Positions 3,001-32,537 of a stretch of DNA of 64,000 bases are shown here, piece after piece. The number at the start of each line of letters is the position of its first letter. The stretch's first letter is position 1. Under the pieces are notes generated by a model, which did no database searches, was not told the origin of the DNA, and saw only the letters and a program-made list of their open reading frames with translations. The position numbers and the translations under genes are program-made. The stretch is taken from positions 504,638-568,637 of the forward strand of contig NMRA01000125.1 in the NCBI GenBank assembly GCA_002633005.1, written 5' to 3'. The DNA is from Phoronis australis. Lineage: Eukaryota > Animalia > Phoronida.

Positions 3001-6000
3001 AGTTCACCCTCCTTGCGTAGTCTAGCTGCAGCTTATTATAGGCGATTGAGTACACCCGACGCATTTCAATAAGATAATTGGCTTGTCGGCTGACCTCGCC
3101 TAGCGCAGGATAAGGATTAAAGATGTAACACCAAAAATCAAAGCTAAGCCACTTTGAAAATTGTGTCATTGTGTCATCTGCCTGTTGATAAAAGTTTAGT
3201 TTAGTGGTGCATTCTATACAAGTATTTGAAGTTGTGTCTTGCCGTGCAGCATTAAGTTGTTTTTAAGCCAGTGTCAGGTAAATGGGTATTTATTTTACAG
3301 CTTTTTGAAACCATGCATTTCATGCATATATTGTTTTAGAAATACACGAATGTGTAAATTTGCATTTTAGAAACAGGCGCAATGTAACAATATGACTGCT
3401 GGATTGGCTGCCATGACGACAGAATGCTCTGGCACTCAGGCGGCTGGTGGAAACAGTGCGTCGGGCCTCCAGATGGCCGGAATGTTGAACTCAGTTATGT
3501 CAGGTGAGTTATGAATGAATCAATGAATGCAGCGTTTGGTGATGTGCAAGAATGCCTGAAATTTCTGATAATGAGCCCCGAGGCGTGTGTTCGAACAGTG
3601 CAATAGTTTTACCTTTCTTGCTTATAAGTAAAAGTGTGGGTGTGCTTGTGTGTACTTTAGAAATAGTGGGATTATAATTAACGACAATGTGCTTGCAACA
3701 TTGGTATGGAATGAGGACATATTTGTTATGAAGAGAGTTGATAGTCAGGGCCCTCGATGGTTTGGGGCTCAGTACTGGCCTCATTACCCTCTGAAAATGT
3801 TTTGAAATGAAATTACCCTCACCAGTCCCCAAAATCACCCTCATATGATTTGCCCTTTAAGTTAAAATTATTTCTACAAAATGTTGGAGGTATAGCCATT
3901 TATTTTGCCAATGGGGGGGGGGAGTGTGGAATTAACTAGTGCTGCCTGGTGGAGGATTTTTCCAGCAACCTAGAAATTCCTAGTTTATTTTGTAGATAAG
4001 CAAAAATGTCCTGAAATAAATGATTTCTAGTTTCTTATCAATTCTTGTTGTGGGTTTGTCACACTCCGACACGGTTTATTTTGGGAACCCTACATAATGT
4101 AGAAAGTATATTAAAAAGTGTGGCCCTGAAAGCAAGCCTGTGGTAGAACTTTCTTTTTCGAAAAATTGAGGCTCGAATTTAATGGCATGTCATATGTCAT
4201 GAGTGTTGTCCTGTCTGGCTAACGAAACTATGCTTTTCTTTCAAGCAACCATAATAAATTATTTTTATCATGTGATTCGTGTACTGAACAGTGTCTTAAA
4301 GGAACTCAAATGGAAACATTCAGTTCAACAGGCTGTGGAATGTGGCAGTGTCATATGTCTCAAAAATAATTTGTAAGAAAAGTTTGGTTTGTATAGCACA
4401 GCCATCACCAAACAGGATTTGGTAAAATTTCAAAGACTTGAAACAATGTAATTTAACATCAAGAAGTAGAAAAAATGCAAATTTTGTAGAATTTTTAGTG
4501 TACTTAAAAGGTGGAATGCTTGTTAAAGTTACTATGAATAGCATCAGTATTCCCATACCCGAGGTGCCAACTTGTTTTATAGTGTTGGGTATACCACAAG
4601 TGACCTCTGGTGAGGAACAGCTGATGTACTTGAAGCTTCAGGACTTGTGCACTCGGCTAGGCCAGCAGAAGCTACAACAGGATCAACCAGTTGAGGGAGC
4701 CACGCACCAGCCTGTCTGTGACCAACTATCCAGGTACTATGTGTACTGCACATAATGTGGTCTCTCTCAAATAAACCAGCTTTTCATGGTGTTCGTTTTT
4801 AGTGTTTTGTGCAGGATGGACACAAAAAGAGCACGCAATAATCACATAATATCAGGAAGAGATAACCAGGAAGGGACAACTAGCTAAACCGCCGTTTTTG
4901 GCCTCCTTCCCCGGACTAATTTCAAGACTTAAGTTTCGTTTAAAAGGAAACAGATGATTTTATCAGAGAGATTAAAGNGTATTTCGCAGTTTTTGTTGTC
5001 GAGTCGGGTGTCGCTGTGGTAACATGGGTTCCAGTGTCTCACCTTGTTAAAAAAATTAGCTGCCTCAAGGTTTGTCACTGATTTGTGAAAGCAACTATAA
5101 ATCTGCATTCCTTAAAAGTAATTAACATTTGATTTAAACCAGTTACTGCCATAAAACTGATTTCAAATCTATTCCCAATTCAGATGAAATTGTTTTTGAG
5201 CTTGGAAAAACCAGACAGTTCATTATTTAATTCCAAACTCAGTGCCTATGATAATGACCTGCCGTGACAGGCTGAGCCTGGTCTTGGGCAATGACAAACC
5301 TCTTCTTTGACTAGGAACAATTACAAACCTATGTCATTGTTGTTAGTGGTCTAAATCACGGGACAGCTGATAAAAAACCTCCAATTATTGCCTTAGTTGT
5401 AAAGTGATTTGGCGTGTCCATCCTTGACTATCATTATGAGACGTGCATGTATTTCATTGGGCTGTCTTGGCTTGCTTTGTTTTTTCGTACGTCAGTAGAA
5501 TTATTCCTAAACCAGACAAGTTCGCTTTAGCTTGTCAAGTCTGTAGCATGGAACATCTTTGGAATTGAAAGGTGGTATTTTTGGAGCCTTAAGCCATGTT
5601 GAACTTGTTGCATCATATTTTAAACGTGCTGGTTTTCAGGAATTCAAGTCTGACTGTGCAGTCTCACTTTAAAGATGCTCCGTTTCTATTCAATTAAAAT
5701 CTTCACATTAAAATTAATTTGACCACAAATCAATCTAGTTTTAAGGGAGCGTTCACTTATTGCCTCATCCTAAGTTTGTCACTTTTTATCCCCTCTGTCA
5801 CCACCCATCATCCTGATATAACCCCCCTTCCATCTTCTAATTACGTTATCACAGCCAAACCCCGCCTGTTTAGGCAGTGATGGAGTGGGTCTGTAGTTTG
5901 GGTACTTGCTTATAAAGTAAGCCTAATGAAATATCAAGTCTTGGAAGCATGAAACAGTGGGTCATGGTTTTGGAATTGGTCAATTGTACTAGAAGGTGAA

Positions 6001-6558
6001 CCAGTTTCCCAACGACATGTACCGTGATGGAGATATTCTAATAAACCACACAATGACATCACCATGAGTGCAACCCCCTCCCTCATCATCTTTCCAAACC
6101 TCGTCCCCCCTGGAGTGATGATGTGATATGTGAGTGCTCTCTAATCAAATATTTATTTTCATGTGCACAGTGAAACTATGGAATTTTCAAACTTAATGTT
6201 TGAATAACAGGCGATGCCACAGCAAAATAGCCACCACATTGGATTGGCATTCCAGTTCACACACTGTAATTTATGCAATGTTTCCATTTTATTGATGTCA
6301 TTTTTAAATTTTGGTTTAAAAAGTGCATGGCCCTTTAAATGTGCTTTCAGCTTGCCAGCAGATGTAGGCGAGACCAGCAGCACAAAAGCTGTGGAGGAGT
6401 TACAAACGTCTACAGCAAAGGAACTAAGTGCAATGGAGAAGCGTATTATGAGTGCGGTTGATGAAAAAGTAGACAAACTGGAGCAGAAGCTCTCAAAAAA
6501 ACTAGACATGTTGCTAGAGGCCGTATGTAAAAGCCAGCACTACATGGGCCTAGACTGA
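1..6558 (+). CDS. C10orf88: C10orf88/PAAT (DUF4506-type) homologue, 5' end outside the window; 6 exons
   Basis: Phase-consistent GT-AG exons <1-56, 903-1051, 1366-1569, 3371-3503, 4583-4733, 6351-6558 (TGA). The spliced protein has GFHIITSARRVEV..YLCTQTG, KFVSL, VQMDKVNEMMRDMG, LQDLCTRL and a C-terminal coiled coil KELSAMEKRIMSAVDEKVDKLEQKLSKKLDMLLEAV. These match, in order, blocks I recall from vertebrate C10orf88 (SARNMEVY, IDLDKVQTIMESMG, MEKKLMDYIDQRI). AATAAA near 6843. Confidence 0.85.
330..835. mobile_element. Arm of a dispersed non-autonomous DNA transposon family (family X), in intron 1 of the C10orf88 fragment
   Basis: Shares blocks (aaaacaacaggatcaata, tagtttttgatagccc, gcattttgt, ccaaatttggacattt) with 7887-8750, 8865-9610 and, reverse-complemented, 48378-48600. 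Boundaries approximate. Confidence 0.6.
5745..6141. mobile_element. PIF/Harbinger-like MITE
   Basis: Imperfect terminal inverted repeats GGGAGCGTTCACTTAT / ATATGTGAGTGCTCTC flanked by TAA on both sides (5742-5744 and 6142-6144); no ORF. Confidence 0.55.
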
Positions 6559-7442: not shown

Positions 7443-10400
7443 TCAGGTAGTTGAAAACAACTTGTGAATTATCTCTTGGTGAGTTGCTGGTTGAGGTAAG
7501 GACCTCGAATGATGAGCCACTGCAACAGAACATTTTCATATTTCAAAACAGCTCAAAATGCAACGATGACTAGATCATGTTCGCACCTTGCTTGTACTTT
7601 GGATTTAGAAAAGTAAATGCACCTACTGTTTTCCTCTTTCACTATATTTGACTTTATACTTAGAAAGGAACAAAATTTTAAATTATTCCACAGATCACAA
7701 GAATGACGCTAAATAACTGACTTATAAGTAGAACTTTATCTAAGACCCTAGCTGGATTGATTTGGTAAATGCAGAAGCAAATTTTCAATTACAGAATGTG
7801 GTTCTAGGTGAAAACAATTTTTATCACAGGACAACTTTTCCCACTGACACAAACTTCAAATTTATGTTTGGTGAGTTACATTTTAAAAAAGATTATGTAG
7901 GAATATATCTCAGAAATGGTTGATGGGATTCGCATAAAACTAAGACACTGCTCCAGAAAATGCTGTTCGTAATTGTTATAGAAATGTTCTACTGTTTCAC
8001 AAGGGGCTATTAAAAATACGAGTCAAGAAAAAATTTTAGAGCTGCAGAAATCGAAAACAAAATATTTAGAAAACCGTAACAGCATTTTTGATATTTTATC
8101 TTTAACGTTTACATCATATTATTATGTTGGATCATGTTATTATTGATCCTGTTGTTTTGCTATGAATGTACCTTTCTTTTTTGCTAAATTTTCCTAAAAA
8201 GCATGGTCACGTAACCTAATTAATGGCAGATTGGTATAGAGTCAAAAATCAAATTCTACAAAATTTCTGCTTTTAGACAGTCACTATACTTTTGCCGAGT
8301 TAGGGATAAGTAGGACCTTATCGATCAGACTGTACATTCAGCCAAATGAAATACAATACAGTATAAATTCTGGAAAGTTTTATTTTTGACTTTGAACACA
8401 CCTGCCACTAATTAGGTCACATGACCTTGCTTTTTAGGAAATGTTAAGGAAAAAAGAAAGGAACATTGTTCATAGCAAAACAACAGGATCATTAACATGA
8501 CAAAATTTCCAAAGATATCTAATGGTCTACGATATAATCTCAAAAATGCTGTTTCATTTTCGGTTTATGTAACTTTTTTCATTAATCATATAAGTCCTAG
8601 TTTTTAATAGCCCTCATACAAAAAAGGAACATTTTAAAAACAATTCTCAATAGCATTTTGTAAAATGGTGCATAAACTATAAACTTCTCTGATAGGATAT
8701 TCCAAATTTGGCAAAAATTGGACATTTTACATTGTCCCAAATAACCTTGAAATTCAGCTTTCTAAATATTTTACTATTTGCACAGACTTGTCACTAAGGT
8801 CCTACATTTCCTTCACATACGGTCCTACATTTCCTTCACATACGGTCCTACATTTCCTTCACANTTAGAGCTGCAGAAATCGAAAACAAAATATTTAGAA
8901 AACCGTAACAGCATTTTTGATATTTTATCTTTAACGTTTATATCATATTATTATTATTATTATTATTATGTTGAATCATGTTATTATTGATCCTGTTGTT
9001 TTGCTATGAACGTACCTTTCTCTAAATTTTCCTAAAAAGCATGGTCACGTAACCTAATTAATGGCAGATTGGTATAGAGTCAAAAATCAAATTCTACAAA
9101 ATTTCTGCTCCTAGACAGTCACTATACTTTTGCCGAGTTAGGGATAAGTAGGACCTTATCGATCAGACTGTACATTCAGCCAAATGAAATATCTACAATA
9201 CAGTATAAATTCTGGAAAGTTTTATTTTTGACTTTGAACCAACCTGCCACTAATAAGGTCACATGACCTTGCTTTTTAGGAAATGTTAAGGAAAAAAGAA
9301 AGGAACATTGTTCATAGCAAAACAACAGGATCATTAACACGACAAAATTTCCGAAGATATCTAATGGTCTACGATATAATCTCAAAAATGCTGTTTCATT
9401 TTCGGTTTATGTAACTTTTTTCATTAATCATATAAGTCCTAGTTTTTAATAGCCCTCATGCAAAAAAGGAACATTTTAAAAACAATTTCCCATAGCATTT
9501 TGTAAAATGGTGCATAAACTTTGAACCAAGCATCTGAAAGTTTCATGTGGATCTAATCATCCACTTCTCTGATAGGATATTCCAAATTTGGCAAAAATTG
9601 GACATTTTACATTGTCCCAAATAACCTTGAAATTCAGTTTTTTTGTAAATATTTTAGTATTTGCACAGACTTGTCACTAAGGTCCTACATTTCCTTCACA
9701 TCATACTCTAAATGATATTTACAACTTACAAATCTGAGTTGGATTCATGTTGCCTCTCTCGCTTTGCTTCTCCAAGACTGTTCTAACTCTTGATACTGAA
9801 AAAGTTTTTACAAAATTCAAATCAAAGCAATCACTTTGTCAATGATATTGTAAATATTTCCACCTGATAGTTTTCTAACCAGAAAATTTTTCTAATGCGC
9901 CTCATTTATGACACACTAGTCTTGTCCATTTTGTCGGCAACAGTTGCTTTGCAATAGAATGCATATAAACATGCCCCCCCCAAAAAAAAAACAACACAGA
10001 AAAATAATGAACCTACCAGCAACTGAGAAAAAATCCTGATTCATACAATCAGGTCATGCGACAGGCATACTGTAACTCTCACCAGATTCAAACGGCTTTG
10101 AAGCAAATTACATTCCGGCATCCACAGTAGAGTTTTGAAAATAAATTCGACAGGCTTCAACAGAACTCGTCNATGAACCTACCAGCAACTGAGAAAAAAT
10201 CCTGATTCATACAATCAGGTCATGCGACAGGCATACTGTAACTCTCACCAGATTCAAACAGCTTTGAAGCAAATTACATTCCGGCATCCACAGTAGAGTT
10301 TTGAAAATAAATTCGACAGGCTTCAACAGAACTCGTCATAATTTAAAACGGTCTATAGTTGAAAAGAAATGAATGTTTAGATGAATTTATGAGTAAAGAA

Positions 10401-13400
10401 ACTGAGCAGAATTTCCATGTTGTCCAGTTTATTTTGAAAACCACTGTCAGTTAAAAACAGAATAACTTTTCACCTAAAGTTTGCAAATTATTCTTAGGTG
10501 ATTTTAATAGTGTTACTGTTTTCTTGAAATTTTCGTCATAATTTCTGCTAAACTTCAGACATGGGTTTTGTCCATTTTAACAAGACCAACACAAAGTATT
10601 GAAATGAGTGCACTAATCCACTGCAAACAGTAATTATGCTTCTAGGGGTGTTTACATACATAAAATGGCCACTATATGGTGTAGAAAACATTGAACCCAT
10701 GTGAAAACGGAAAAGCATTGTTATCTCCCTCATACGAAATTATTTGGCACAGTTTAAAATCTGAAGGAACTCCATAATCCAAGGATACAGAGGCAAATGT
10801 AAAAGTTGACAATAGACGGTACAGCAGCAGTTGGATCCATTCAGTTGTCAACTTCATTGGGTTATACTCGCTAAACAATTCACAAAGATCCAGCAAGAAA
10901 TGTAGGAGATGTAGCTGTAGATGCAAAAAAATGCCACTAGGGGGCACCAACACAGTCGAACCAAATTGCATGAAAAACCATCAAGGAACTGTGAAGATGC
11001 AAAGCAAAACAAATTGCCACTGAGGCCACAGAGACAGTTAAGATCTGTCCAAAAGTTGTGGTCAGCCATAGTCCTACTGATAGGAAAACATTTGCCAAAT
11101 TTCACTCCAGAAAGCGTTTAGCAGATACAGCAAGAAGACCAGACAGAGCTGACGGCAAATGCTCCCATATGAGAACGCATAAAAATCAGTAGTATTGAAT
11201 AATGTGCACTGTACCAAGGGACTCTGTTCTTTTTATCTCTGCATTCATCTGGTCACAAGTCTGAGTCTCCATCAATGCCTCGACTTGCTGTAGTTTACCC
11301 GCAAAAGCCTGGAGTGAGAAATGTGTGCATCATAGGCTGTGTTCGGCAGACGTAAGAATCTCTTGAATGCAAGACTTCGCAGTGCATTATGACCGATCAC
11401 ATGTGACCACACTTGGCTTTTTTCGTGAGTCTCTTAAGTCTACGGAACACAGCTCAGGATAATAGGAATCCGGTTTAAAAGACATCCAACGGCAATCTTA
11501 ATGTAAAACAATTAATTACAATTAATCATTATTAAAAATCTTAATTTGGCATAAGGAAATAATACACTGAGAAAACATGATTTTAAAATTTGTTTTGACT
11601 GTTAAGTTTGCCACGACTACTTACATTAAAATAAGTCACTCATCATCCTATTATGAATGTTACTAGTAAGATTTTGAAGAAAAACATTTCCAGGGAGACT
11701 CCACGAGATGGTTGTTAAATACAAAAAAATATAACAGGGAAATCTGTATGATAAAAGTAAAAAACAACATTTCTCAAATTACTAAATAAATTAATGTACT
11801 ATTGAAAAATCTCTAAGATTTTTTTAAAGTCACAAGGATTTTGTTTGTAGTGAAATTCATGACTTTTGATTAATCCATAAGGATTGACATGTAACAATTC
11901 CCCGGATGTCAGTAAAATGCATCCAAACATAACTCGTGTACAACTCCTAATTTTTAGTGAACTGCACACTCACATACTAAAAACTAAGTATGGCAAAACT
12001 TCACCAATTTTGGACAAACAATTGCCAAAATGGATCTTTTTTCAATTTTCAATTCTTTCAAAACATTCTCTGATAGTAGACAAAGCTTAAACACCAAAAT
12101 GTATAAATTTGATGCTGTATATCTTTTATAGAGAAAAGGAGAACATAAATTTCACTTGTCTGCCATATTGTGTCATAAATTGGGGAGATTTTACCGGATG
12201 TTTTTGCAACACTGAGACACAGAGTTCCAGTCTTATGACCTTTGAACTTCATGCAACTTATGACTTTTGAACTTCAATGCAGTTTCTGACAAAAAACAAT
12301 TCAAGTTGCCCTATCAGTGATCGCGAGGCAGCAACGCATCAGTTAGTGAGTTTTTGCCCTGGGATTTCCCACAATTTTCTGAAAGATGTTTGTAATTTAA
12401 CAACTAAGTTTGATAGCGATGCACCACAATTTTGTGGAAAGTCTGTCATAGGCTACAAATACATCCCAGAGTGTAAATTTGATGAATCCTAGCTTCCAAT
12501 TTCACCTTTTTCAGAGACTGGGTTTCAACCGCCTTAGGCTACAATAAGTGCCCCAATCCCAAAACCTAGGGGGCTTATTAGGGCGAATACAGTAGTCTAA
12601 CTTCAAAAAATGGAGCTTTTGCTTAAACATCTCCTCCTGACAGAAGTTTAAAATTTTGGAGCCAAAAAATTTCAACAAATTTACAAGTACTACTTTACAT
12701 AATTTTCACAAGTGATGAAATTGGTCAACTTTTTATGAAAACTACAATGACAAGTGACAACATTTTTTGTCCAAGCAAGGCATCAAAAGAAGCTGAAAGC
12801 CAACCTTGCGCTTTGCACTCTTTATTTTCTCTTCTTGCAGTTGAGCAGTAAGGTGAACTAGTTGTCTTTTCAACAATGCATACCTGGAAATTTTCGAAAA
12901 ACAACATTAAGTGTCCTACATACTGAGAAAAATCAAAAAACAATTCAGAGAAGCATAGGTTGAAAGTGAGAGGAGAAACAGAGGAGAGGGGGGGAGGGAG
13001 ATGGGGGAGGTAGGCAGGTAGGGAAGTAGAGAGGGAGGGAGAGAGGAGGGAGGGAGGGGGAGAGGCAGGGAGGGATGGAGGGAGAGGGAGGGACGAGGCG
13101 AGGAAGGGAGGGAGCGGAGGAAGGGAGGGAGGGAGACAGAGAGAGAGGAAGCAGGGAGGGAGAGGAGGGAATAAATCTAGCATCAATGTACTGTAGGACA
13201 GGACAATGACCAAAATTAAAATTGTTTACAAACATTGTCTCATGAGCTTGAGTTAAGAGCCACAATTTTTAAATTCTTTATGGTTTATAGGGTTTCCTCA
13301 AATGAACAGTGTTAACTTTGCAATTATTAAGCAGAAACAGGGGTTAATGAAAAACAGGACCATTTATTTTAGCGTGACATTAGATTGATTAGATCAGCTA

Positions 13401-16400
13401 CAAAGAAAACTTGACTAACGGTTCCATTAACACCATAAATTATCTTTTAGCTACAGAGCATAATATATTGGTCCACACTCCATGTTGGTGTTGCAGGTAC
13501 ATTTTCGATTGCGTTTTTGAAAATATGTCTGGGCTTATATTTGCATGACAAGATTAAAAACAAGAGCAACATGTCGCATTGAAATGCACCCATGACTGCA
13601 CCACAAACAAAATGCTTCTAAGGCTGTTTATTATTATCCTAAAATGTTAGGAGGATGGTACAGAATACATCAAACCCGTCTCAAAATGGAACAGTGTCGT
13701 TGTCTCTCTAATACCAAACTAGTTGGCTGCCAATTTTCGCAAAGGAACTCTACAGATACAGAGGCAAACCTAAAAAAATCAAACTGCAACTAGAAGGCAA
13801 AGCTTCAGCAGGATTCGTCTATCAGATGTCAAGTTCATTGGAATTACTTGTCAAATTTCACAAAGATCCTATAATGGGTGTAGGAGATACAGCTGCAGAT
13901 GTAAAAATGTCACTAGGTGCTCCCCAGTAGTTGGGTATGACTAAAAATCAATGTCAGTCATGCTCTTGACAGTAGTAACACTATCTGCCAATTTTCATAA
14001 TGATCCTCAGCGCGATTTGGCAGATACCAAGGCAGATGACACAAAAATAATGAAAATGGCCACTAGACGGCCGTGATGTCATCTCCATGCCAAATTTCAC
14101 AAAAAAATCATCAAGGAACTCTTAAGATACAAAGGCAAACATAAAAAACATCAAAATTGCTACTGGGGTGGAAGTTGGATCGTTCCAAAACTCCTCGCCG
14201 TCCGTAATCTCCACCATAGGAACTCCCGAGCCAAATTTCACAAAGTTCCTTCAAAGGGTTAGGGAGACAGTCGCGGACGCAAAAAACAAAACTACTATCA
14301 GGAGGCTTCACAACAGATGGACCCATCAACATCAGTCATATTGTTTTCGTCAGGGACACATCTGCCAATTTTTACGATCCTACGAGCGGCTTAGCAGATA
14401 GAGAGGTGAACCAAAAGCACGGAATAAATAAAATTTACAACTAGGTGGCACAGAATCCGTCCAAATACGGAAATGCATCGACATCTCCTTAATAGAAAAC
14501 TAATTACAATTCATCAACAAATGCTGAGGATACAAAAGCGACCATAAAAAACTAAAGTTGCCACTAGGGGGCACAACAGTAGTCACAGCACTCTGAAACT
14601 AGTTATCATCCATCATAACAACACATCTGGCAAATGTTATTGACATCCTGCAAGGGGTTTAAGTTATGCAGCAGTGGGTGCTGGATATGAAGCATCCGAC
14701 GCCTAGACAAAGATCGCCACAATACGCACCCACAAAAAATAAATGTCCTGAGAAAGAAGCCATTTTCCAAATACACGACCAGGGGCTTACTACCACAAAT
14801 TCCCAATACCTTTCTGTTGCACTCTTGAAATCGTCGCTGTCTGATTCCGACACATCCCAGGCATCTGGGTAGCTATCCAAGCATTCCTGTAAATCCCTGC
14901 TAGTATTCAAGTCTGGCAAGTGAGTATCAGGACGGACCTCAAATCGCCTCAGCCTGTCCAGTCTCTCCAGCAAATTTCGAATCTTGGTTTGACTGTGGCG
15001 CAAACTCAATTCCAGATCCATCTCATGGTTCACTAATAGGAAATAAAGTTTTTGTATCAAGTACGGTATGCATTGTGACCACCAAATTTAAACAGTTTAC
15101 TTGGAGCCTGCCACTCGATCGGTCAACTTTGGCCCAGGACTCAGAGATCTGTATCTGAAAACTCAGACTTCCAAGACAAACTTTGGGTGAACTCCTTCTC
15201 AAAGCAATCAAGTCCTGCTACAAAAAAATAATTTGTTTTCAAAGTTGAACCCACTTAGGTAGTGGTCACCCAAGTTTTTCGTACATTAGTAGCGCTGAAC
15301 ATGTGAGTGACTGTGAAAGTAATTGATAGACTTTGTAGAATAACAGAGAAGTGTGTTCATTTTACCTTGTCAATGGGACTGTTAAAGGAGACCTTTCATT
15401 CCAGTCACTCTTGAAGTCTTAAATTACCAGCCACAAAAAGAGCACATTGTGATCAATATCTAACAAATATTTAGTTAAAACTTACATTTTGAAATCATCT
15501 TGGAGACGATGCTGCGTGGAAGTTTATTTTTTGTTTGATCATGATCTTTCTCTGAAATTGACAATTGACTTCAATGAAACCACTGCAGAACTGCTGAAGT
15601 GTGTTTAAAGCTACATGCACAATGTGCATGTCGTCTATCAATAGACCAACGTTTGATTTAGACTATTTGCTGTTATAAATAAAACCAATCCCAAGTTGTT
15701 GCTAATTCAGACCAAAAGTGACCACACAGATTTGGAAGGAGTGGAATTTCTTTTTTGCTTGCTGGAGACTACTATGCACATTGAGTGGGCTTGACACGGC
15801 TGGTCACTGTAGGCACTGACAACATCATGGCTGGAGACTAATATGCACATTGAGTTGGCTTGACACGGCTGGTCACTGTAGGCACTGACAACAACATGGC
15901 TGATCACATATGTTGGTTTTCAAGGTCAAATACCAGCTACAGTTATGCGCATTGGCCACAAAATACCCTTTGACAGGTTGGTATATAGCTGCATTAAGAT
16001 TTGTCCAAAAATGTTGCCCAATCTGACTGCATAACATTCTCATGTTTGAATACATTTGACTTTTTTTCAAAAATACAGCACAGAAGCATAATTTTGCTTA
16101 AGTTTATACTCGCCTGTTAGTTCTTTTTGTCATTATTTCTAAAATACACTTTCACTAAATTAATGAGATTTTCAATCCACAAGTCTCATCTCTGAATCCC
16201 AGCTGCTACACGCACACTGCAATTTGTAATAAAGCAGGCACACATTACCACAAAATCCACTTAATTTTCTTGCCAAATGCTTGCATTCAGAGCCACTATT
16301 TTTTGCAGATTCAGTTGTGGACTCTCTTTTAGAAATCCTCGCAGGAAATAGCAGGAAACAAATCAGGTTGTGTGTCTGACCCTAACTGTCCAACTGATAT

Positions 16401-19400
16401 GACATTTCTGTTTACTGTTGCCTGTATTCCAGTGTTCAATCATCACTTTGTTGATAAATGAATAAATTCATTTCGACCCTCTGCTTTCTCCTCAGCACTA
16501 TGACGAATTTCTTCCTTGTCATTGCTACATATCACTCAGTGGACCTTGCGTCGCACAGGCAATCTGTGACCAACACACTCCTCTGAACTATCTCGTACTG
16601 ACTGGTTTCTTTGGGACTATCTAAGAGCGAGAGTAAAAAGCGACAATCTGCAAACAATAGAGGCTCTGAATGCAAAGATTCGTCTGGAATTTTGGAAGAC
16701 GTTTTTGGTTGCATTATCACAACCTGCAATGTGTGTGCAGCAACAGTGGTTCAAGGATGAGCTACATGAACTGAAAATTCATTACATTGTCAAATGGCGA
16801 GTACCAAGTGAGAATTTCATCCTTCTGTAACATATTTGTCAATAAAAGTATCCAAGCACAAAAATAGTGTACAATTAGAATAGGCAACATATTTTTGACC
16901 CATCCTGCAATTTAAAATATCTACCCGATCATTTCAATCAACTGCTCCACAGTCCTCTACAGAAGTTTGACCCAAATCTGTATATATGTACTCTTGCCAT
17001 CACCTTAAGAATAAATATTTTATTCAAATACAAATGAGATGCTGATTATTTTCCAAGTATACGTAACTATACCTTTCAAGTGACGAATGTATTCAGTTGC
17101 TTCATTGTCAAGAGCAAACGGTGTACGCGACAGAAGCACGTGATCTTGCACAAAGTTCCAGTCATGCATGTGAGCCTCAACATCGCACGTCGACACACGC
17201 TGACCTAGAATGTCAGTACGTAAAAAGAATGAGGTACAAAACGAGGTGAAAGAGGATGGGATAAAGATTGTTTACAACGTGGAAGAGCCAAAACAGCGCC
17301 ACCAAGTAGAGAAAGGCTGCAAAGAGCCAAAAATTCAAGACATAAAATATTAGGGATGTGTAACAGAGATGGTTTTCGATAGCAAAAAAAAACCTACTCT
17401 TTAACTAGAATCAAACTTAAAAATGAGTGAGTTTGAATATCTCAAAATAGTTACATGACAATAATAGTAAGTCCATCACTGTTTATAAAAACCTAACTTT
17501 AGGCTGCTGTTAACAGAAAAGACCAATACACTATGGAAGCACAAGAACAAGGTCCAAAAGAACGGCTCGCGAAATCGAGGCTGTTAATCTATCACCACTA
17601 GGGCACGCGCGCCCTCTAGGTGATGTAAATTTTCTGAATAGCCCCATTGACACCAGTTTTATTATGAATGCACCTTTATAGTTTCATTTTTGCTAATTTT
17701 TACAAAATTCGTGCTGACAAGAACCAATTATTGGCATATTGGTCCACACTTAACATTCATGGTCTACAGGCTTTTTCTTTTGAAAAACATAATTTTTTTA
17801 CAGAAAGTTCAATTCCTACAATTTTCTAGTCATTTGGCGAAATGCACACTTTACTGATCAGGCACTACATTAACCTTAAATTCAAAGTGTAGGATAACAC
17901 TAACGTTTAGATGGCAAGCTGACATCCCCCGATGCTTTCCGTTTGATGAACTGCAGTGCATTCTGCCTTGAACGACCTTCGACCTCACTGCTTTCCTCAA
18001 CATCAGAGTCATCCTTGGACGACCTTGACACACTACTTGATGACGCCTTTTTTCTCGGAGTTACAGCTTTTTTTCTCAAAGATTTCGGTATACTTATGCT
18101 CGCCTCTTCGGCCAACGAGCCTGTTTCGCCCATTTCATTCACACTATCACCTACAGAGGCCACTAGTGTATCAATATTTTTGGAATGTCTCATTCCACTG
18201 TTATTATTCGTTGCACTTACACGACTTTGTTTCAAGCCGTCTGACATTTTCGCCATGCTGACTTTAGCTGATGAAGGCTCAGTCGTGTTACGCCGCCTGC
18301 CCTTGGTTAAAGAACTAGTTTGATCCACCTTGGCTCCAGCACGACGACCACTCAGCACTGCTGCAGCCGAGACATTGAATCTCTTCCGATCAGGTAATGC
18401 TACCTTCTCAGCGCTACGTTCCAATTCCCTAGACAGAGTTGCCGGCTGCTCTTCCCCACTTATGTTAGCAAACAGTTTCTCAGGTGCTTTCCTGACTGAT
18501 ACGGCTCCTGACGAAAGAGAAGTGGAAACACTTTCAGTCGGCTTCGAAAAACTGTGAATCGCCTTTTTCGAGCTTTCCAGCAAAGACTGGGAACGCTTTC
18601 CCTCAGTTGTGACTCCGCTAACTGTAAGCCTCTTTTTCACTGTTGTGACCTTATTGCTGGTAGTGTTGACCTCCTCCCATTCTTGATCTGTGTCATCACC
18701 ACTGGCAGAGGTCACAGACGGGGACAACCCCTCTTGATGGGAAGAGGACAATGAGAACTTTTTGCGAGAACTTCGTTCATTCACAGGAACTGCAACACCA
18801 GATGCCTGACTTTTCAGTGATTCATCCTCAGACTCCTAGAGTGAATAAAAAATTATTCATTTTATTTGACAGAAGAAACATTTACAGTACATCATCATTC
18901 AAATGTGGTTCAAAATCTGTGCACATTCTGGGCTCATCGACTCATGAATCCATAGGGGGTAATCGAACAATTCTCTTCTCAGCTAGGACCATAAACCCTT
19001 TATTAAGCTATGTTTAGGTACACAGTCAAACTGGGACAGAGGTGTGATTAAGAGCAGGGTTCACAAAGAACTGCTTTCACTGACCTTGCATGTCAATTTC
19101 AAAAGGTATGAACCACACCCATTATTTACAATCACCTGCCAAATTTTAAGCCACTATGTGGACTAGTTACACCCTCCAAGCCCAAAATGCACCTGAAGTC
19201 CCCAAAGGATTTAAAGTGTACTGCCTTTAAACCTGGATTTCGTCCAGTTCATCTGGTTGAAAATAAAATTAAGTTTTTACTCCCATAAAACTGGTCTCAT
19301 ATTTGTTACTGTTATCAGATAGTATTTTGGTTACTAAAAAGAACATCAGCAGCTAAAGAAAAAGCTTCAGAATTTATTGGAGATGACCAACCCTAAAATT

Positions 19401-22400
19401 GCCCACGTAGGCATCGCCTGTGACTTGAGCAGTTAACTAAGGAATCCTATCATGGTAGACAACATTATGAGACCGAATTTAAGAGAGTAAATGCGCAACT
19501 TCAAGTTATGTTTTTAACCCACTAAACAGAGTGAAATGCAAAGACTAAAAATTCCCTTATCAGGTTTCAAGAACAGTGCCGCATCAAGAACAGTTTTGTT
19601 TCTATATCATTACTTATTTATTATCATCTCCTCTTTGGCTAATGACATTTTTGTATTTAAGTATCTAACAAAAACGGAGCCCTTATTTCACTGAAGATGA
19701 AGAAGGGACATTGTCCTTTAGTTAAGGATCGTTACATTAAAGGATTCCAATTTCCTTACTCAATTCTATTGAGCAATCGACAGTTTGTTCTCAAAGCCAG
19801 ACACTAAGTTAGTTAATGAATATAAACCTGCATAAGAAAAGACAATCCACAAATATGCAGCAAATTTAGAGAACTTGGTTGAGTTCCTATACGGACTATT
19901 TCACGCAGTCGGACACAGTCTCAACAGATTTACCACTTTATATTGGTGATTAGTTTAGTTCGATGAGTGAATACTAGATGGAGTTAGTAGTGGGTAGACT
20001 GGGACTTCAAATGTAGTTGACTAAATCATTCAATTAAGACAAACCTCTGACACATCTTTTTCATTTGACTTTTGTTGACTGGCAGAGGATTTTGGAGTAG
20101 TCCCTTGGGTGGGAATCTCTGGAGATTCCGTTCTCCTCAGTGCAACTGAAAATTAAAGAAGACCACTCATGGACCCGTGAAATATTCAGATTCAGGGATT
20201 TTCAAGAAGTCTTCAAAACAAAGTTCATTCAACACTTTATAGGACATTAAACTATTAACTAAAGCCCCTCTGATGATCTCCACTAAAATAACTAATTCTT
20301 TATCAGCATTGAAAGTAGAGATGTACTCACTAAACAACACAGTGTTTCAAGTAGAAAACATGCCATTGAAATTTAGAGTCATTTTAGGACCAGCTTCAAA
20401 TTCTATGACAATATAGGAAAGAAAGCAGACAAGAGAACAATTTAGTACTGTAAGTGTACAAGTTTTAGATTATGTAAAGTAGTTCATATACTCACAGACT
20501 GTGGTCTTGCTGTTCCAGACATTTCCAACTGCACTCTCTAATAATCTTATACCAATGAATGGTGGGTTGCTGGTGTTTCCCACAATTATACTACTTCCAG
20601 GTCGCAGAACAGTGAGAAACACTGACAATATATCATTTGTTGACAAAGGACTGTAGAGTGCAGTTTGAAATGTATGAAACAACTTCAAATAACAAAAACG
20701 CATTGTTTATTGACTTAAGAACAAGTTTACTGCCTTAAACTCCTAAAGAGTGACACAAGACTTTAAACCAATTATGAAATAAATGCATTGCTCATAAATT
20801 AAGACTACTAATTTTTGCTTTTGTTATAAACTTACTTGAAATCTAATGGGGTGAAACAAAGTTACATGTTAAAGAACTGTCCTTCAGTTTTGAATGCTTT
20901 GTGCAAAATGACCTGAGAATTGAACATGATACGTGACTTTGAAAAACAACTGACAACAGTAGCCGTGAAACGGAGACGAACTCGCGTCTACCTTGTTCGA
21001 GTTCCTCTTTATCAGACGATGGCACAATCTCATCTGCTGCCTGACGTCTTCTGCTACTGCTAGCACCCTGGTGTTCTGCAGGTGACTGAACGTGTTTCAT
21101 GGGGGACTTGAGGGCAGAGAAGAGCTTATGTTTTCCTTATGTAATGGCAACAAGGGCAATATTTCAGATTAAGAAGGGTTTCATGAAACAGAACTAAGAC
21201 ATCACAAGTTGTTCTTACGCGAGATTCACTGTAAGAATTATTGCTTACAGAAGATCTGAATAAAACAAGTCGCTTGCCCAGTGTTTACATATAAATTAAA
21301 TTGTTTAATCTCCTTGGAATTCATTATCTGTCAGATGATTACACAAGATCGATAACCAGTGATGTCTTCTGTCACTACTAGTGCTTTGTGAAAGACAAGC
21401 TGGAGATTAGTAAAAGGCATCCCAGATCAGACCAAATAATGTTCGTTGAACAATTTCACTGATGCAGGAGCAATAGCAACTTTTTGGGATACTGTGCACT
21501 GCTGCCATGCATGTCACTATTTAACATTAAAATTAGTTAGCCATTTGTCATACTGATGCCATAGTGGAATGCAATGCAGAAACAGATTACATGCCAAAAA
21601 TAGTCAGGCAAAATACTGTTTCCCAGGCCAAGACGGGTCACCATGGCAACTGTGCTTGCGCTCAGCTGTCATGACGAGAAATTCTGGACATTTATTTTTA
21701 GTGCGAGCTCTAATAAACAAACTGGAGAAGCTGAGTGAGGAGCAATAGAACATATTTTGCTCAGGAGTGTGTGTACCATTTAGGGATGTCGGAATTGAAA
21801 TTCCATATCTGAGTATATGATGCCAGGATACCTCGGGCTGCCTTTCAGCACATCGAAGCCATTTAGTAACATACACATCGAAGCTATGACATTGCAACTG
21901 AACATACCGATGCTTTTTAGAAGTACGAAAATGACACAGTCTTACATCAGGAAAAAGAGTACCATTGGCCGTAGAGCCGTTACAAAGAATCAGTACTCTA
22001 CTCATAGATAGTTGAGACTCTAACTGGCAGAAAAAGCCCCACTCAGCTCATATGTTTCTGAGAAGCTGTAAATTATTTGGAACTGGACTTAAATCCATAA
22101 AGTTTATAGCCAAATCGATTACCTGACTTAGAAGAGGCACTTCCAGCAACAGGAACAGAAGAAAATTGGTCAAACCCTGAAAATACATCAGAAGGTTACC
22201 CCTAACACACAAAGAAGCTCAACTAACAACTTAGAAAAATACAGTTGCATTTTGCATCTTCTTCAATCAAATGACAGAAGAAATTGCTGCCTCATGAATC
22301 AAAAAGTACAAAAAAATGTTTTGAAAGTTCACACTCAGACTTGCAGCAAGATTTTTTGCAAACCACTGTATCTCAAACATTACACAACAATGTCTTAAAA

Positions 22401-25400
22401 ATGTACCCCCCCCCCCGAACAAGTCAATTGAATTTCGTGATTGGCTGCACCGCTGTCAATGACCCACTATACAAAGCACTCACGGTACTAGTAACTAATT
22501 CAAAGTAATTTAGTGATTACAGCAACAATGACAGGACAGTGCGTCAAAAACTAAAAGTTGAATTTATTATTTGTAAAACTTTTGAAAAAAGATTTTTTGC
22601 CAAAAATTAACCAAGTGCATGACATGCTTAGAGTGAACTTAAAAATTTGTATTTGAATCAGGAAACGTGATTGGTTGAATTTCGAGTCTGAATCTGAGTT
22701 GAGTTTTAGTTCAGAGAGTAGATCCTTGTCCCAGAACCAAAACTAATTGTGCTTTCTGGCCTAACACTGACATTCCATCTCATGAAAAGTTTACATTTAA
22801 GGATCAAATTAACTTACAAACAGTATTATAGTTTTCCTAAAAATCAATTCAGCAAAATAAATCACAACTTCCAGTCATCCCAGAAACGTACTAAATCTTA
22901 ATAAACTTACCATTAATCTTCACAAAAATTATAAAAGTTTTTAAAACTGTGTGTTTAGAAGGCCTGCTCTGGAGACGTGGGTGCTTGTTTTTCCCAACTA
23001 ATCATAAGTTCTCTGTTAAAATAGATTTTCTGTTTAAATTAATTGTCAAAAAGACTGAAAAAGTGGAGGTTTGACACCCAGGTTAGAGGTGAACGAGATA
23101 GCTTCAAGCAATTCTGTTGTTGTCTTACCATCAGATACAAAGCGCCGATCTGCCGTGGACCTTTTCCTGGAGTTGAGAAGCTCAGGTGGTACAGCCATGG
23201 ACAGGCGTGTACTTTCAGCCCATGGGATCAGTTGAGATATGTTGCTTGAAAGACGGCCCTGGATAAAAAATAACTCGCAGTCAGCAAGATTATCTGAGCA
23301 CCAAGATCTGTCTTCTAGATAAAGTTATTTTAAAAACATATGTGATGCATACGTGATTGTACCCCAGTTTACCAGAGTAATTTCAATGAGTTTATAACTA
23401 CATTTGAGAGGTAATACCACAGTGTTTGAATCTCATCAGGTTTGTCAAGGTGAGCAGGTGGTACAATGTTATAATAAACTCTTGGCAAAAATCATTGCCA
23501 AAATTGCCTTTTATAAACTCCCCAAGGATGTCAAACATTGTTGTGGATTTCCACAGTTTTTCAAAATATTCTCAGATGGTAGCTATTGCATAAAACTCGT
23601 GTCCTAAATTGGTGAGATTTTACACTGTTCTCCGGTAAAGCCTAACAACAGAAGTTAACACATGGTTAGACAATGGCAACATGACATGTGACACTAGTGG
23701 TTTAAAGTTGCTGGACACTAGATCGACAAATTCAGGCAATTAAAATTCATAAATGAATTTCTTGTATATGTGAACCATGATACTTGATAGGGGCACAAAA
23801 AATCTCCAAAGTTGAATATCCTTGTATTTTCCAACAATAATCGATGAAAAATTTAATAGGTGTTAACCCAGACATCTATGGTCATAAGACTGCCTACTTC
23901 TGTCAAAGTTAATTTTGTTGATTAAAATAGATGTTTATTGAAAAAAAATCAAAACTGCGAAAACTTGTAAAATGTTTCTAGCTTCAATGCCAGATAATTC
24001 AAAATCAATCAAAAATGATAAAAATGATTCAGCTACTTTAACTTTCATGAAATGGACCACCAGGGGAGGTAACGCAAAGTACCGGTAAATAAATGGATAT
24101 GATAATCAACTCAGCTCAAGTTCCCTTTAACATTGTGCAGAATCCCCCTCTATTTGTTGAATGACTGGCTGAGGTTCACTCTAAGTTTACAACCTTCCAA
24201 AAACTTGGCTACTCACTGTCCTGCTTGTGTTGGTAGACTGCCTGGGATTCACTCTCTGCCTCAATCTCTCCATCAACGTTTGTGATAGTGAGACGTCTGC
24301 CATATCTTGAGGCTTAGCTGAGCCTGGAAATCAAATCAGATTGGAGCACAAAGATGCCACAATGACAAACAACATAACTCGCTAAACTGAGGTTTACTTG
24401 TGGAAAAGTTAGTAGCAATCAGTCAAACCAATTTGTTTAATTCACACTAATCTTAGAAGAATTGTACAGAGCTAAAATGCGCACTCACGGTCCATTCACC
24501 CAAGATGGGCGGTTGGGCATCATTGCTATCCAACAGTGATGTCCGTATTAGTTTGGACTTTGACATGGATGTCGTATTTGGACATCAATGAAAGCAAATA
24601 CCGTGCAGATGTCAGACTTTCAAATGCCAAATTGTTATTAGGAAATTATGAACTGTGTTGACGCCAGACTTAACCAGACTACATATACACCAACGACTTC
24701 TAAATGTCTGATTTTTAACATTAAATGGGGGCTGGGAGCACTGACATCTGGTTGATCATGGATTCTACCATTGTTGGGCGCCAATGTAGAAAATTTCACA
24801 TGCCCACAACTGGTATTGACTGCCAGTGTATGATTGTATACAAACCATTTGACCAAGAGGTAATTGCCACTTGAGAAGTGATTTAGAAAGGCTTAATACC
24901 ACTACAGACAAGCCCAAGTCATGAGTCAAAACTAGTGTAAGTTTCAGTTTCATGTTGCAGTGTGGCAGACCAAGATGCGAGTTTAAATGAAATGGAACAG
25001 AACTGGAAGTCTGGAACCTGGCACCATGTCTGAGACTCCTAGAGAATGAAAACACCAAACTTACATTAAAAACATAACATGGTTCCAGACCATAATTAAA
25101 GCCACTGAAATGGAACCTGGAATGAAATAATACAAGAGCATACCTCTAGTATACACCATAGTGTCTCCCCTGGGTTTTGAAATGACCATGTGGATGAATG
25201 GTCCAAGTAGGATGCAAAGCTCGTTGCGATACGCAAGTATAGGAAATGGGATCCTCCTATAACTTGGGATTCGAAAGGAACGGGGTGGTGAACGGTTACA
25301 GTGGATGTTTAGCCCGGTGCAACAACGAAGTGTCATTATGTGATCTCCTTGTATGAAGATTTATTATTAATCTTACAGATTTCACGTTCACAAATTAAAG

Positions 25401-30584: not shown

Positions 30585-32537
30585 ATGGAAGGCAATATTT
30601 TTCATGTCATTTTTAGCAAAAATACGGTTAATTGATTATCCCTGACATATTTTTCTCTTAATTACAGTTTTTCGCAATTTGATTAATAATTCGTCCTCTA
30701 ATCCGGAATTGACGTTTTGAGATGCAAGAATTTCGCGCCAAATTCTTTATATTGTCCAACTGTGAGAGCTGTCGAGTCAGTCATTGTTCTACCTCGGTTG
30801 TGATAAGTTCGGTCGTCATTTGCGTTTGTTTAAAGGCGAAGGCAAACTTTTTCCATGTCATTTTGAGCTAAAATAAGGTTGGTTGGTTATCCTAGACATA
30901 TTTTCCACTTAATTACAGCTTTTCGTAATTTTATAAATTACTCGTCCGCTACTCCGGAAGTGACGTTTTAGGTGGCAAGCGTTTCCCGCCATTTGGTTTT
31001 GCGTTGACTTTACCGTGCGAATCTGTTCTATTCTACTTTTGTTTTGTGCTGTTTTTCAAAAATTGTCGCCACCACTTTCCATCGGTGAGTATTCTGCGGC
31101 AAGATAGGTTAGTAGCGAACTCAACTACGTTGGATTTAGGGATTGTTTAGTGTGTTGTAAGCTGAAAATGGCTGGAGTCGGTGACCCGTATCAATGTGAC
31201 AGTAGTGTTAGTGACGGAGACCTTGTTCACAGCAGTGGTGACGAGGAATTTTTTCACGGACATCCAATGGGGGGGGTACATGTTTGAGCCCGAGTGTAAC
31301 GAGGCAGAGTAAGCACAGGCACAGGCAGTTGTTGAGAGAAACGAGGCGGCTACTGAGGACAGACGTGGTGACACATCTTGGNNNNNNNNNNNNNNNNNNN
31401 NNNNNNNNNNNNNNNNNNNNNNNNNNNNNNNNNNNNNNNNNNNNNNNNNNNNNNNNNNNNNNNNNNNNNNNNNNNNNNNNNNNNNNNNNNNNNNNNNNNN
31501 NNNNNNNNNNNNNNNNNNNNNNNNNNNNNNNNNNNNNNNNNNNNNNNNNNNNNNNNNNNNNNNNNNNNNNNNNNNNNNNNNNNNNNNNNNNGTGAGCCGA
31601 TAATTAGTACATCCTGGTACGCAGCAACAGTGTGGCATGTTTACTGACTAGATATGAAAGCAAACGACGACGGAACTTAACACAACCGAGGTAGAACAAT
31701 GACTGACTCGGCAGCTCTCACAGTCAGACTATATGAAAAGAAATTGGCGCGAAATGTTTGCCTCCTAAAACGTCACTTCCGGAGTAGCGGACGCGTAATT
31801 AATAAAATTACGAAAAGCTGTAATTAAGTGGAAATATGTCTAGGATAACCAACCAACCTTATTTTAGCTCAAAATGACATGGAAAAAGGTTGCCTTCGCC
31901 TTTAAGAGTCAGTCAACATACCACACTGTTGCTGGGTACCGCGGTAAACTCATTATCGCCCAGACCCTGTAAGCAGCCCTGCTGCGATGTTGAGTAGGCT
32001 AGTGGGAGTGAATACAGGCCCAATTAGACACCGAGTGAACTGGACAGTTCGTCGTCCAATGAAAAGATCGGTGAGCCAAACTTTGATAAGTTATTGTGGA
32101 CTTGTCTAAAATATTGGAGCTATTTAGACGGTGTCAGGTGTGTGGCGAGGGAGTCACGCGGCCGGATGTAAGCAGTTTGTGTAATCAGGTAACCATCCAG
32201 TGGGAGTGTGCCGTGGGATACTCGGACAAGTGGGACAGATGTTACTCTGTCCGTGAGACGATAGTGAGTACATCCCGGCACGAAGCAACACTGTAGATGT
32301 TGACTGACTCGTAAACAAAAGCAAACGACGACCGAACGTAGAGCGATGACTGACTCGGCAGCTCTCACAGACGGTCTAGGAGAAACTGGCTCGAAGTTCT
32401 TGCCTCCCAAAACGTCTCACTTCCGGAGTAGCAGACGAGTAATTGTTTAAATTACAAAAAGCTTTAATTAACTGAAAAATATGTCTGGGATTATTTATTT
32501 TTGCTAAAAATGACATGAAGAAAGGTTTCCTTTGCCC
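30585..32537. mobile_element. Older Kolobok derivative of the same family with THAP-side ends at both termini; interrupted by a nested copy
   Basis: The left end (30585-30833, resuming at 31906) is TIR plus THAP leader on +. The right end (about 32250-32537) is THAP start plus TIR on -, ending CCC followed by TTAA. 32040-32240 repeats the DLSKILELFRRCQVC...QWEC..DKWD block on +. Confidence 0.7.
30834..31901 (-). mobile_element. Younger Kolobok derivative nested in an older copy; contains a gap
   Basis: TTAA at 30830-30833 and 31902-31905; near-perfect TIRs AGGCGAAGGCAAAC / GGTTGCCTTCGCCT. THAP start MPHCCCVPGCTNYRL at 31638 (-). KolX-like start MAGVGDPY...GGYMFEPEC..*..RRGDTSW at 31168 (+). 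Ns at 31382-31591. Confidence 0.85.

What the first reader, a model, noticed from the sequence alone, without database searches (positions are those of the whole stretch)
7443..17204. Animal gene with a Fta4/Nkp1-like kinetochore domain spread over seven small exons
Seen: splicing exons 17204-7443 gives about 245 aa with six blocks in order: FVQDHVLLSRTPF, LPRSIVSKMISKLN, HSQTKIRNLLERLDRL, DLQECLDSYPDAW, ERYALLKRQLVHL, MNAEIKRTESLVSRV. These line up in the same order with the fungal Fta4 pattern as I recall it (FIxxQVRILSQPL, LPxxVVxxVLxKVN, YSxQATRHVAEQIDxL, IxxLPxxW, ERYxxLxxRLxEL, LEAELERMRxLLARV). Established: S. pombe Fta4 is the orthologue of budding-yeast Nkp1, which pairs with Nkp2/Cnl2 in the CCAN; vertebrate CCAN has no Nkp1/2 and carries CENP-R on CENP-OPQU. 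Inference: this invertebrate retains an Nkp1-containing, yeast-like inner kinetochore. Only one of these exons appears in the ORF track. Nkp1/2 homologues outside fungi have been proposed in phylogenomic work, so novelty for animals needs checking.
Basis: partly seen in the sequence, partly recalled or inferred. Interest (0 to 1): 0.85.

Follow-up and report, generated by a model that had tools for sequence, protein, structure and literature searches.

The report
Long-tailed Nkp1 kinetochore gene in animal
This invertebrate has a transcribed, many-exon gene that is very likely its copy of Nkp1/Fta4, a chromosome-attachment protein known from yeasts and lost in vertebrates; two other animals were already scored as having it, and what stands out here is a predicted floppy tail of about 480 residues that the fungal copies examined lack.

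Summary
Seven minus-strand exons (17204-7443) with GT-AG introns and matching phases give 245 codons, the end of a 13-exon, 727-residue model. Stranded RNA reads cover the exons tested and show five junctions. A profile of fungal Fta4 matches the spliced part collinearly (25 bits; 0 of 3000 shuffles reach it; genomic exon order ranks first of 720), at only 12-21% identity. Independently, two introns sit in the same codon and phase as in fungal Fta4 genes. It is therefore very likely an Nkp1/Fta4 orthologue. That animals have Nkp1 is not new: a 2019 table (PMC6823300, Table S1) scores Nkp1 and Nkp2 present in Saccoglossus and Nematostella, 2 of 20 animals, though reviews still treat the pair as yeast-specific. 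The unusual feature is a 482-residue Ser/Lys-rich N-terminal extension, joined by RNA reads, where fungal copies have little or none. Partners (Nkp2, CENP-O/P/Q/U, CENP-R) could not be searched, no animal relative was retrieved, and the spliced protein could not be folded or scanned against Pfam. Verdict: real, a variant of a known family, moderate interest.

The parts
24217..24303 (-). Predicted first coding exon (ATG at 24303), aa 1-29; short basic, probably helical N-terminal segment
   Evidence: Open frame and GT donor; RNA depth in the bin, junction not listed
23129..23258 (-). Predicted exon 2, aa 30-72
   Evidence: AG/GT and phase fit; low RNA depth in the bin, junctions not listed
22123..22176 (-). 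Exon 3 (54 nt), aa 73-90
   Evidence: RNA joint to 21135 with 54 letters on the short side
20992..21135 (-). Exon 4, aa 91-138
   Evidence: RNA joints on both sides
20045..20145 (-). Exon 5, aa 139-172
   Evidence: RNA joints on both sides
17905..18835 (-). Large exon 6, aa 173-483; Ser/Lys/Thr-rich, low in hydrophobic residues, predicted disordered
   Evidence: RNA joint upstream, 3 reads joining it to exon A; composition; no Pfam hit
17073..17204 (-). Exon A, aa 483-526: first head helix, F500 to P511 in register with the fungal FLxxQxxLLSQPL block
   Evidence: Global alignment; weak, outside the local HMM match; RNA depth
15486..15551 (-). Exon B, aa 527-548: start of the second head helix
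   Evidence: HMM match; RNA depth of 1-2 reads
15033..15485 (-). Phase-1 intron in the codon between K and N, same codon and phase as intron 1 of fungal Fta4 genes
   Evidence: 8 of 30 fungal upstream models carry it; DNA seen
14810..15032 (-). Exon C, aa 549-622: N550, R567, E571, D574, L576 helix, then the P604/W607 linker
   Evidence: Ungapped register with the fungal QAxRHVAEQID helix; RNA depth
12884..14809 (-). Phase-2 intron in the R codon before Y624, same codon and phase as intron 3 of fungal Fta4 genes; holds repeat elements
   Evidence: L006, L014, L016, probably also L001 and L029; junction in 12 reads
12805..12883 (-). Exon D, aa 623-649: start of the long coiled-coil helix
   Evidence: Best-scoring single exon, 6.1 bits; letters seen in RNA loose ends
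11215..11308 (-). Exon E, aa 650-680; lacks the fungal QxNLxxxxG block, keeps E673 and L680
   Evidence: splice sites and phase only, no RNA laid
9730..9795 (-). Exon F, aa 681-702
   Evidence: Within the HMM match; splice sites and phase only
7443..7519 (-). Exon G, aa 703-727 and stop; short terminal amphipathic segment aligned with the last fungal helix
   Evidence: Global alignment; weakest exon assignment, no RNA laid

Best explanation
This is a transcribed, spliced animal gene whose last 245 codons very likely encode an Nkp1/Fta4 orthologue, predicted to work as an accessory subunit of the inner kinetochore and to carry a probably disordered 482-residue N-terminal tail. By analogy with the yeast structure (inferred, not tested), the two helices of exons A-C would pair with an Nkp2 hairpin to form a four-helix head. 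The P/W linker of exon C would cross the CENP-O RWD surface. The long helices of exons D-F would join CENP-U, CENP-Q and Nkp2 in a four-chain coil, bracing the CENP-OPQU pillar where vertebrates have only the short CENP-R cap. The tail would project from the head as a phosphorylation-regulated docking arm, the role that CENP-U/Q tails play elsewhere; this last step rests on composition and analogy alone.
For: Shown: gene structure and transcription. A profile of 20 diverse fungal Fta4 models scores the full model at 24.2 bits, pairwise E 1.1e-9, aa 523-698 collinear, and the C-terminal part at 25.0 bits against 0.4 reversed. 0 of 1000 residue, 0 of 1000 7-residue-block and 0 of 1000 14-residue-block shuffles reach it, and the genomic exon order ranks 1 of 720. 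hhalign gives probability 83%, E 9e-6, 162 columns. Two of four fungal intron positions coincide in codon and phase with window introns; chance is 4e-4 if uniform, 0.01-0.04 if few sites are usable. The seeds are Pfam FTA4 members. From papers: fta4 = Nkp1 and the subunit layout (PMC6407923). In the part of Table S1 read, all 14 species scored Nkp1-positive have CENP-O/P/Q/U and 13 of 14 have Nkp2.
Against: Identity is only 12-21%. Only 13 of 38 columns that are 90% conserved in the fungal set are identical, and the QxNLxxxxG block is missing. With the narrower profile of 119 proteins the score is 15-19 bits, no better than the 16.8 bits an unrelated PDB coiled coil gets from a similar narrow profile; 6 of 720 exon orders reach the real score with it. 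No single exon hits FTA4 in Pfam (0 of 8). No animal relative was retrieved. Profiles of CENP-U, CENP-Q, Mis12, Nnf1 and Nkp2 could not be run on the spliced protein. Partners and localisation are untested. The long tail is foreign to the fungal family. Five of the 8 loci with the first shared intron are near-identical, so about four lineages, not eight, support it.
Confidence: 0.75

Rival explanations
1. It is a true Nkp1 descendant but no longer a kinetochore subunit: the domain has diverged and, with its new tail, serves another nuclear role.
For: Loss of most fungal invariant residues, including QxNLxxxxG; 482-residue extension; partners not shown in this genome; Nkp1 is dispensable in budding yeast (PMC6407923).
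Against: All helical blocks are kept in order over the full fungal length. In the published table Nkp1 never occurs without CENP-O/P/Q/U (14 of 14 in the part read). PMC6601020 reports no Mis12/NANO homologues outside the kinetochore.
Confidence: 0.1
2. It is another Mis12/NANO-family subunit (CENP-U, CENP-Q, Dsn1 or Mis12) that cross-matches the Fta4 profile; a long disordered N-terminus followed by a helical domain is the CENP-U/Q/Dsn1 layout.
For: The tailed architecture; Pfam's own description of FTA4 adds 'or CENP-50' (CENP-50 = CENP-U is recalled); the eight subunits are proposed homologues.
Against: Two intron positions are shared specifically with Fta4 genes. PMC6601020 found no sequence similarity of CENP-U, CENP-Q or Dsn1 to the other subunits and only marginal Nkp1-Mis12 similarity, whereas this protein matches Fta4 end to end. 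No exon hit a CENP-U, CENP-Q or Mis12 model at E up to 10, though none hit FTA4 either.
Confidence: 0.06
3. The working protein is a short, fungal-sized Nkp1 starting at M493 in exon A, and the tailed form is a minor transcript.
For: M493 lies just before the first conserved block and would give 235 aa, the fungal size; a few minus-strand reads in one run lie just upstream of exon A (17239-17432).
Against: Three reads join the large exon to exon A in frame; the upstream exons are as deeply covered as the domain exons and form one open frame; the upstream reads also fit unspliced pre-mRNA.
Confidence: 0.06
4. It is an unrelated coiled-coil protein and the likeness is chance.
Against: Block shuffles that keep heptads never reach the score (0 of 2000); the order of exons matters; two introns coincide, and they played no part in the alignment.
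Confidence: 0.03

Closest known systems
Fta4 / Nkp1 (Pfam PF13093 FTA4; S. pombe fta4, S. cerevisiae Nkp1)
   Same: Same order and spacing of blocks over about 245 aa, N/R/E/D/L/P/Y/L/L/E/L landmarks kept, two introns in the same codon and phase.
   Different: 12-21% identity, QxNLxxxxG block absent, and a 482-residue N-terminal extension; among 139 fungal sequences the median extension is 0 and the longest 91 (that set was length-limited).
Animal and choanoflagellate Nkp1 scored in PMC6823300 Table S1 (Saccoglossus kowalevskii, Nematostella vectensis, Salpingoeca rosetta)
   Same: Presumably the same orthologous group: Nkp1 retained outside fungi.
   Different: Presence calls only; the sequences were not among the two supplementary files held, so I could not see whether they have the tail, nor whether this window's species is one of them. 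No functional study was found.
CENP-U / CENP-Q (Ame1 / Okp1)
   Same: Long disordered N-terminal arm before a helical head and coiled coil; Ame1 uses a short basic N-terminal helix to bind the Mis12 complex (PMC4137059).
   Different: The folded part matches Fta4 by profile and introns; similarity to CENP-U/Q profiles could not be tested on the spliced protein.
Vertebrate CENP-R
   Same: Caps the same pillar of the CCAN; positions roughly equal Nkp1/2 helices (PMC9235857).
   Different: CENP-R contributes only two helices and does not run the length of the pillar; PMC9463443 calls it no structural or functional homologue of Nkp1/2. This protein has the full Nkp1 length.

Membership tests
Nkp1/Fta4 (PF13093) | Collinear profile match to the family over most of its length | tested here: met
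   Home-built profile, 24.2 bits, pairwise E 1.1e-9, aa 523-698; 0 of 3000 shuffles
Nkp1/Fta4 (PF13093) | Score above Pfam's gathering cut-off (24.8 bits) with Pfam's own model | not testable with these tools
   Only single exons could be scanned; 0 of 8 hit FTA4
Nkp1/Fta4 (PF13093) | Shared intron positions with family genes | tested here: met
   2 of 4 fungal positions coincide in codon and phase
Nkp1/Fta4 (PF13093) | Residues nearly invariant in filamentous ascomycetes, including QxNLxxxxG | tested here: not met
   13 of 38 columns identical; the QxNLxxxxG block is absent. The reference set is narrow, so this marks the ascomycete subfamily, not necessarily the whole orthologous group
Nkp1/Fta4 (PF13093) | Best reciprocal match among the Mis12/NANO subunits | not testable with these tools
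   No CENP-U, CENP-Q, Mis12, Nnf1 or Nkp2 sequences were held to build rival profiles
Nkp1/Fta4 (PF13093) | Helical hairpin head plus long coiled coil, superposable on yeast Nkp1 | tested here: inconclusive
   The spliced protein was not folded. A fungal member's model is all-helical but gave no significant match even to yeast Nkp1; best Z 5.8, Mis12 chain Z 5.4, rmsd 30.1, 173 aligned
Nkp1/Fta4 (PF13093) | Heterodimer with Nkp2, bound to CENP-OPQU at centromeres | not testable with these tools
   No genome held; needs experiment
'Mis12 subtype' of Mis12/NANO (PMC6601020) | No long disordered N-terminal tail | tested here: not met
   482-residue low-complexity extension joined by RNA reads. 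The paper names the tail as a criterion; that the Mis12/Nkp1 type is the tailless one is my reading from known structures
CENP-U / CENP-Q | Match to the CENP-U or CENP-Q Pfam domain | tested here: inconclusive
   0 of 8 single exons hit, but the test also missed FTA4
CENP-R | Short two-helix core, no extended coiled coil | tested here: not met
   The aligned helical part spans about 245 aa, the length of Fta4; no CENP-R Pfam hit

The most novel reading that the evidence does not exclude
Non-vertebrate animals keep the full ancestral four-chain Nkp1-CENP-U-Nkp2-CENP-Q pillar, and their Nkp1 has gained a long phospho-regulated arm whose basic N-terminal helix recruits the Mis12 complex or binds microtubules: a further inner-to-outer kinetochore linker route that vertebrates lost when the pair was replaced by CENP-R.
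Probability: 0.12. Interest if true: 0.8.

Novelty: new variant of a known kind. Interest (0 to 1): 0.42.

Why it matters
Reviews describe Nkp1/Nkp2 as the yeast alternative to vertebrate CENP-R, and structural papers disagree on whether CENP-R is related to them. Animal Nkp1 has so far been only a 1 in a supplementary table, as far as eight literature searches showed. An RNA-supported animal gene model with intron positions shared with fungi is independent evidence that the gene came down vertically from the animal-fungal ancestor and was lost on the way to vertebrates. It gives a reagent to ask whether Nkp1/2 and CENP-R ever coexist and whether CENP-R is a shrunken Nkp subunit. If the tail is conserved and functional, it breaks the tailed/tailless division of Mis12/NANO subunits.

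Tried and rejected
No whole genome is held. Run search: no RNA holder listed; four runs were offered by species label. Run X3 and contig set X4 gave no reads on 14620-17500. Pfam on single exons: 0 of 8 relevant, one weak EB1 hit at E 0.15 rejected. Word search with exon C among longer proteins: 0 of 67 candidates scored. Representative search with exon C: 5 hits with 5-8 short repeated stretches each; 4 of 5 are TPR-repeat proteins, all rejected. PDB sequence search with exon C: one chance hit. The Atlas could not read exon C; with two fungal members it listed only ascomycete Fta4 and Nkp2 clusters. Search of proteins of 476-2000 aa with a mixed alignment in which exons A and B were misaligned: 0 of 7993 scored; weak evidence. 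A 50-sequence Fta4 profile did not find yeast Nkp1 in the PDB, and fold searches with a fungal model were not significant. Exact look-up of the serpin found nothing, so the animal lineage stays undetermined. Motif scan of the model: no S[ST]P, RVxF or KEN; two full CDK sites and seven [RK][RK]x[ST] sites, unremarkable for this composition and without conservation data (patterns recalled). Literature searches; none returned a study of animal Nkp1. Earlier scan notes hold no Nkp1, Fta4, Nkp2 or Cnl2. No complex prediction was run.
Full report
Observation. Seven exons, 17204-17073, 15551-15486, 15032-14810, 12883-12805, 11308-11215, 9795-9730 and 7519-7443, have AG acceptors, GT donors and matching phases, and give 245 codons ending in TGA. 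Six upstream exons continue the frame to an ATG at 24303, for 727 aa with no internal stop. Residues 1-482 are Ser/Lys/Thr-rich and poor in hydrophobic residues (about 18% Ser in the first 500 residues), which predicts disorder. Neighbours fit an animal genome: a PAAT-like gene converging from the left, THAP elements, a PAN domain and a serpin (4 of 13 frames scanned gave these). The lineage was not determined.

Transcription. Four runs were laid. In X1 and X2 depth is low (a few reads), strand-specific for the minus strand and almost confined to exons; X3 and X4 gave nothing on 14620-17500. Three upstream joints are listed with GT-AG ends (where 7 further joints were not shown). Loose ends give the exact letters of the large exon behind exon A (3 reads) and of exon D behind exon C (6 reads in each of two runs). 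A/B and B/C did not reach the listing limit, but bin depths equal 1 and 2 reads stopping at the predicted edges. D/E, E/F, F/G and the first two junctions rest on splice sites and phase only.

Family test. Single exons gave nothing useful in Pfam, the PDB or the large protein collections. I therefore fetched real family members. A degenerate motif scan of metagenomes gave 42 loci; 41 are Fta4-like, and one (L002) is an unrelated enzyme by my recognition and was dropped. The two tested are Pfam FTA4 at E about 1e-67 to 1e-69, and one retrieved 246 relatives, of which 120 were listed, all FTA4. After removing 8 duplicates, 33 loci were spliced by script. A profile of 119 of the listed proteins scores the model at 15.2 bits. 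A profile of the 20 locus models longer than 185 aa (L035 left out for a retained intron; L001 and L029 finished by hand) scores it at 24.2 bits, pairwise E 1.1e-9, collinear over aa 523-698. That E-value is for one comparison; at the size of the big collection it would be about 6, which explains the empty searches. Controls on the C-terminal part (25.0 bits): reversed 0.4; 0 of 1000 residue shuffles, 0 of 1000 7-residue and 0 of 1000 14-residue block shuffles reach it (maxima 7.8, 10.0, 16.6); the genomic order of exons A-F is first of 720; the best of 1591 window frames is the one holding exon D. With the narrow profile 6 of 720 orders reach the real 18.7 bits, and a similar narrow profile gives an unrelated PDB coiled coil 16.8 bits, so the narrow score alone would not convince. 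A global alignment places all seven exons along the fungal length at 12-21% identity, with 13 of 38 highly conserved columns identical; the fungal QxNLxxxxG block is missing.

Intron evidence. The alignments were made without intron information. They put the window's B/C intron (phase 1, in the codon between K and N) on intron 1 of 8 of 30 fungal upstream models, about four lineages because five loci are near-identical; from that N to the D of the RHVAEQID helix the register is ungapped. They put the C/D intron (phase 2, in the R codon before Y) on an intron of L006, L014 and L016, 3 of 27 automatic downstream models, several of them cut short. L001 and L029 can be modelled the same way, though the splice-site score preferred other acceptors in 4 of 5 loci of that group. 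Two other fungal positions, near the DL motif, have no match. Two of four coinciding has probability 4e-4 under uniform placement and 0.01-0.04 if only a fifth to a tenth of sites are usable. Profile and introns together make orthology to Fta4 very likely (about 0.9, my estimate).

Mechanism. PMC6407923 (passages) lists fta4 as Nkp1 and describes an Nkp1-Nkp2 four-helix head, an Nkp1 segment crossing the Mcm21 RWD domain and a four-chain C-terminal coil with Ame1 and Okp1; the pair stabilises COMA and is not essential. PMC12606422 (passages) shows a FTA4-domain protein of Candida co-purifying with Mcm21 and needed for Cse4 localisation. A model of a fungal member has the expected helices, but fold searches were not significant. 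Mapping this layout onto exons A-G is inference. The tail's role is more speculative: PMC4137059 (passages) shows a short basic N-terminal helix of Ame1 binding the Mtw1 complex, and residues 1-29 here are short, basic and plausibly helical, but no conservation or binding test was possible.

What is known. PMC6823300 (passages; supplementary file 2, part 1 of 4) scores Nkp1 and Nkp2 present in Saccoglossus and Nematostella, 2 of 20 animals, and in Salpingoeca; absent in five vertebrates, Ciona, Branchiostoma and Strongylocentrotus. Its sequence file was not among the files held, so whether those proteins have the tail is unseen, and this bears directly on novelty. PMC6601020 (passages of text and SI; Fig. 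S4 not visible) places Nkp1 in opisthokonts and uses a long disordered N-terminal tail as one criterion to split Mis12/NANO subunits. PMC9252888 and PMC7614391 (passages) treat CENP-R and Nkp1/2 as functional alternatives. PMC9235857 allows a distant relationship, PMC9463443 denies it, and bioRxiv 10.1101/2022.01.07.475394 says CENP-R partly substitutes (passages). Eight searches (listings only) returned no study of an animal Nkp1; subscription papers are not covered.

Verdict. The gene is real and very likely Nkp1/Fta4. Its presence in an animal is already on record. The additions here are an RNA-supported model, intron evidence for descent from the animal-fungal ancestor, and a 482-residue tail absent from the 139 fungal sequences compared (longest extension 91 aa; most of that set was limited to 473 aa, and a search above 476 aa found nothing). 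New variant of a known kind; interest 0.42.

Noticed in passing
window 1282-6555 (+): PAAT-like (C10orf88) gene fragments, converging tail to tail with this gene; Pfam PF14958 at E 9e-5, below the cut-off, on one frame.
   Followed up: partly
window 62250-63392 (+): Intronless serpin, 381 aa, Pfam E 3e-110; exact sequence not in the collection.
   Followed up: partly
window 8036-9701 and 10007-10339: Near-tandem duplications of about 840 and 166 bases, each around a single N (8864, 10172), probably assembly overlaps; no exon is duplicated.
   Followed up: partly
window 17239-17432: A few minus-strand reads in run X2 inside the intron just upstream of exon A: retained intron or an alternative start that would give a fungal-sized protein from M493.
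   Followed up: partly
window 25600-26900, 31200-31650, 44427-44834: THAP-type transposon remnants; Pfam THAP E 2e-9 at 44427-44834; the 26 kb copy lies just upstream of the gene and collects many reads of other copies.
   Followed up: no
window 13740-14620: Repeat elements inside the C/D intron draw deep, strand-biased reads from other copies, over 1000 at 14545-14585.
   Followed up: no
window 55872-56366 (-): PAN/apple domain fragment, Pfam E 0.0015.
   Followed up: no
L035:628-1437 (-) and L036:583-1458 (-): Fungal Fta4 genes whose single intron has no in-frame stop, so the collection holds a read-through form (P0006, 270 aa) next to a spliced relative (P0007, 248 aa).
   Followed up: partly
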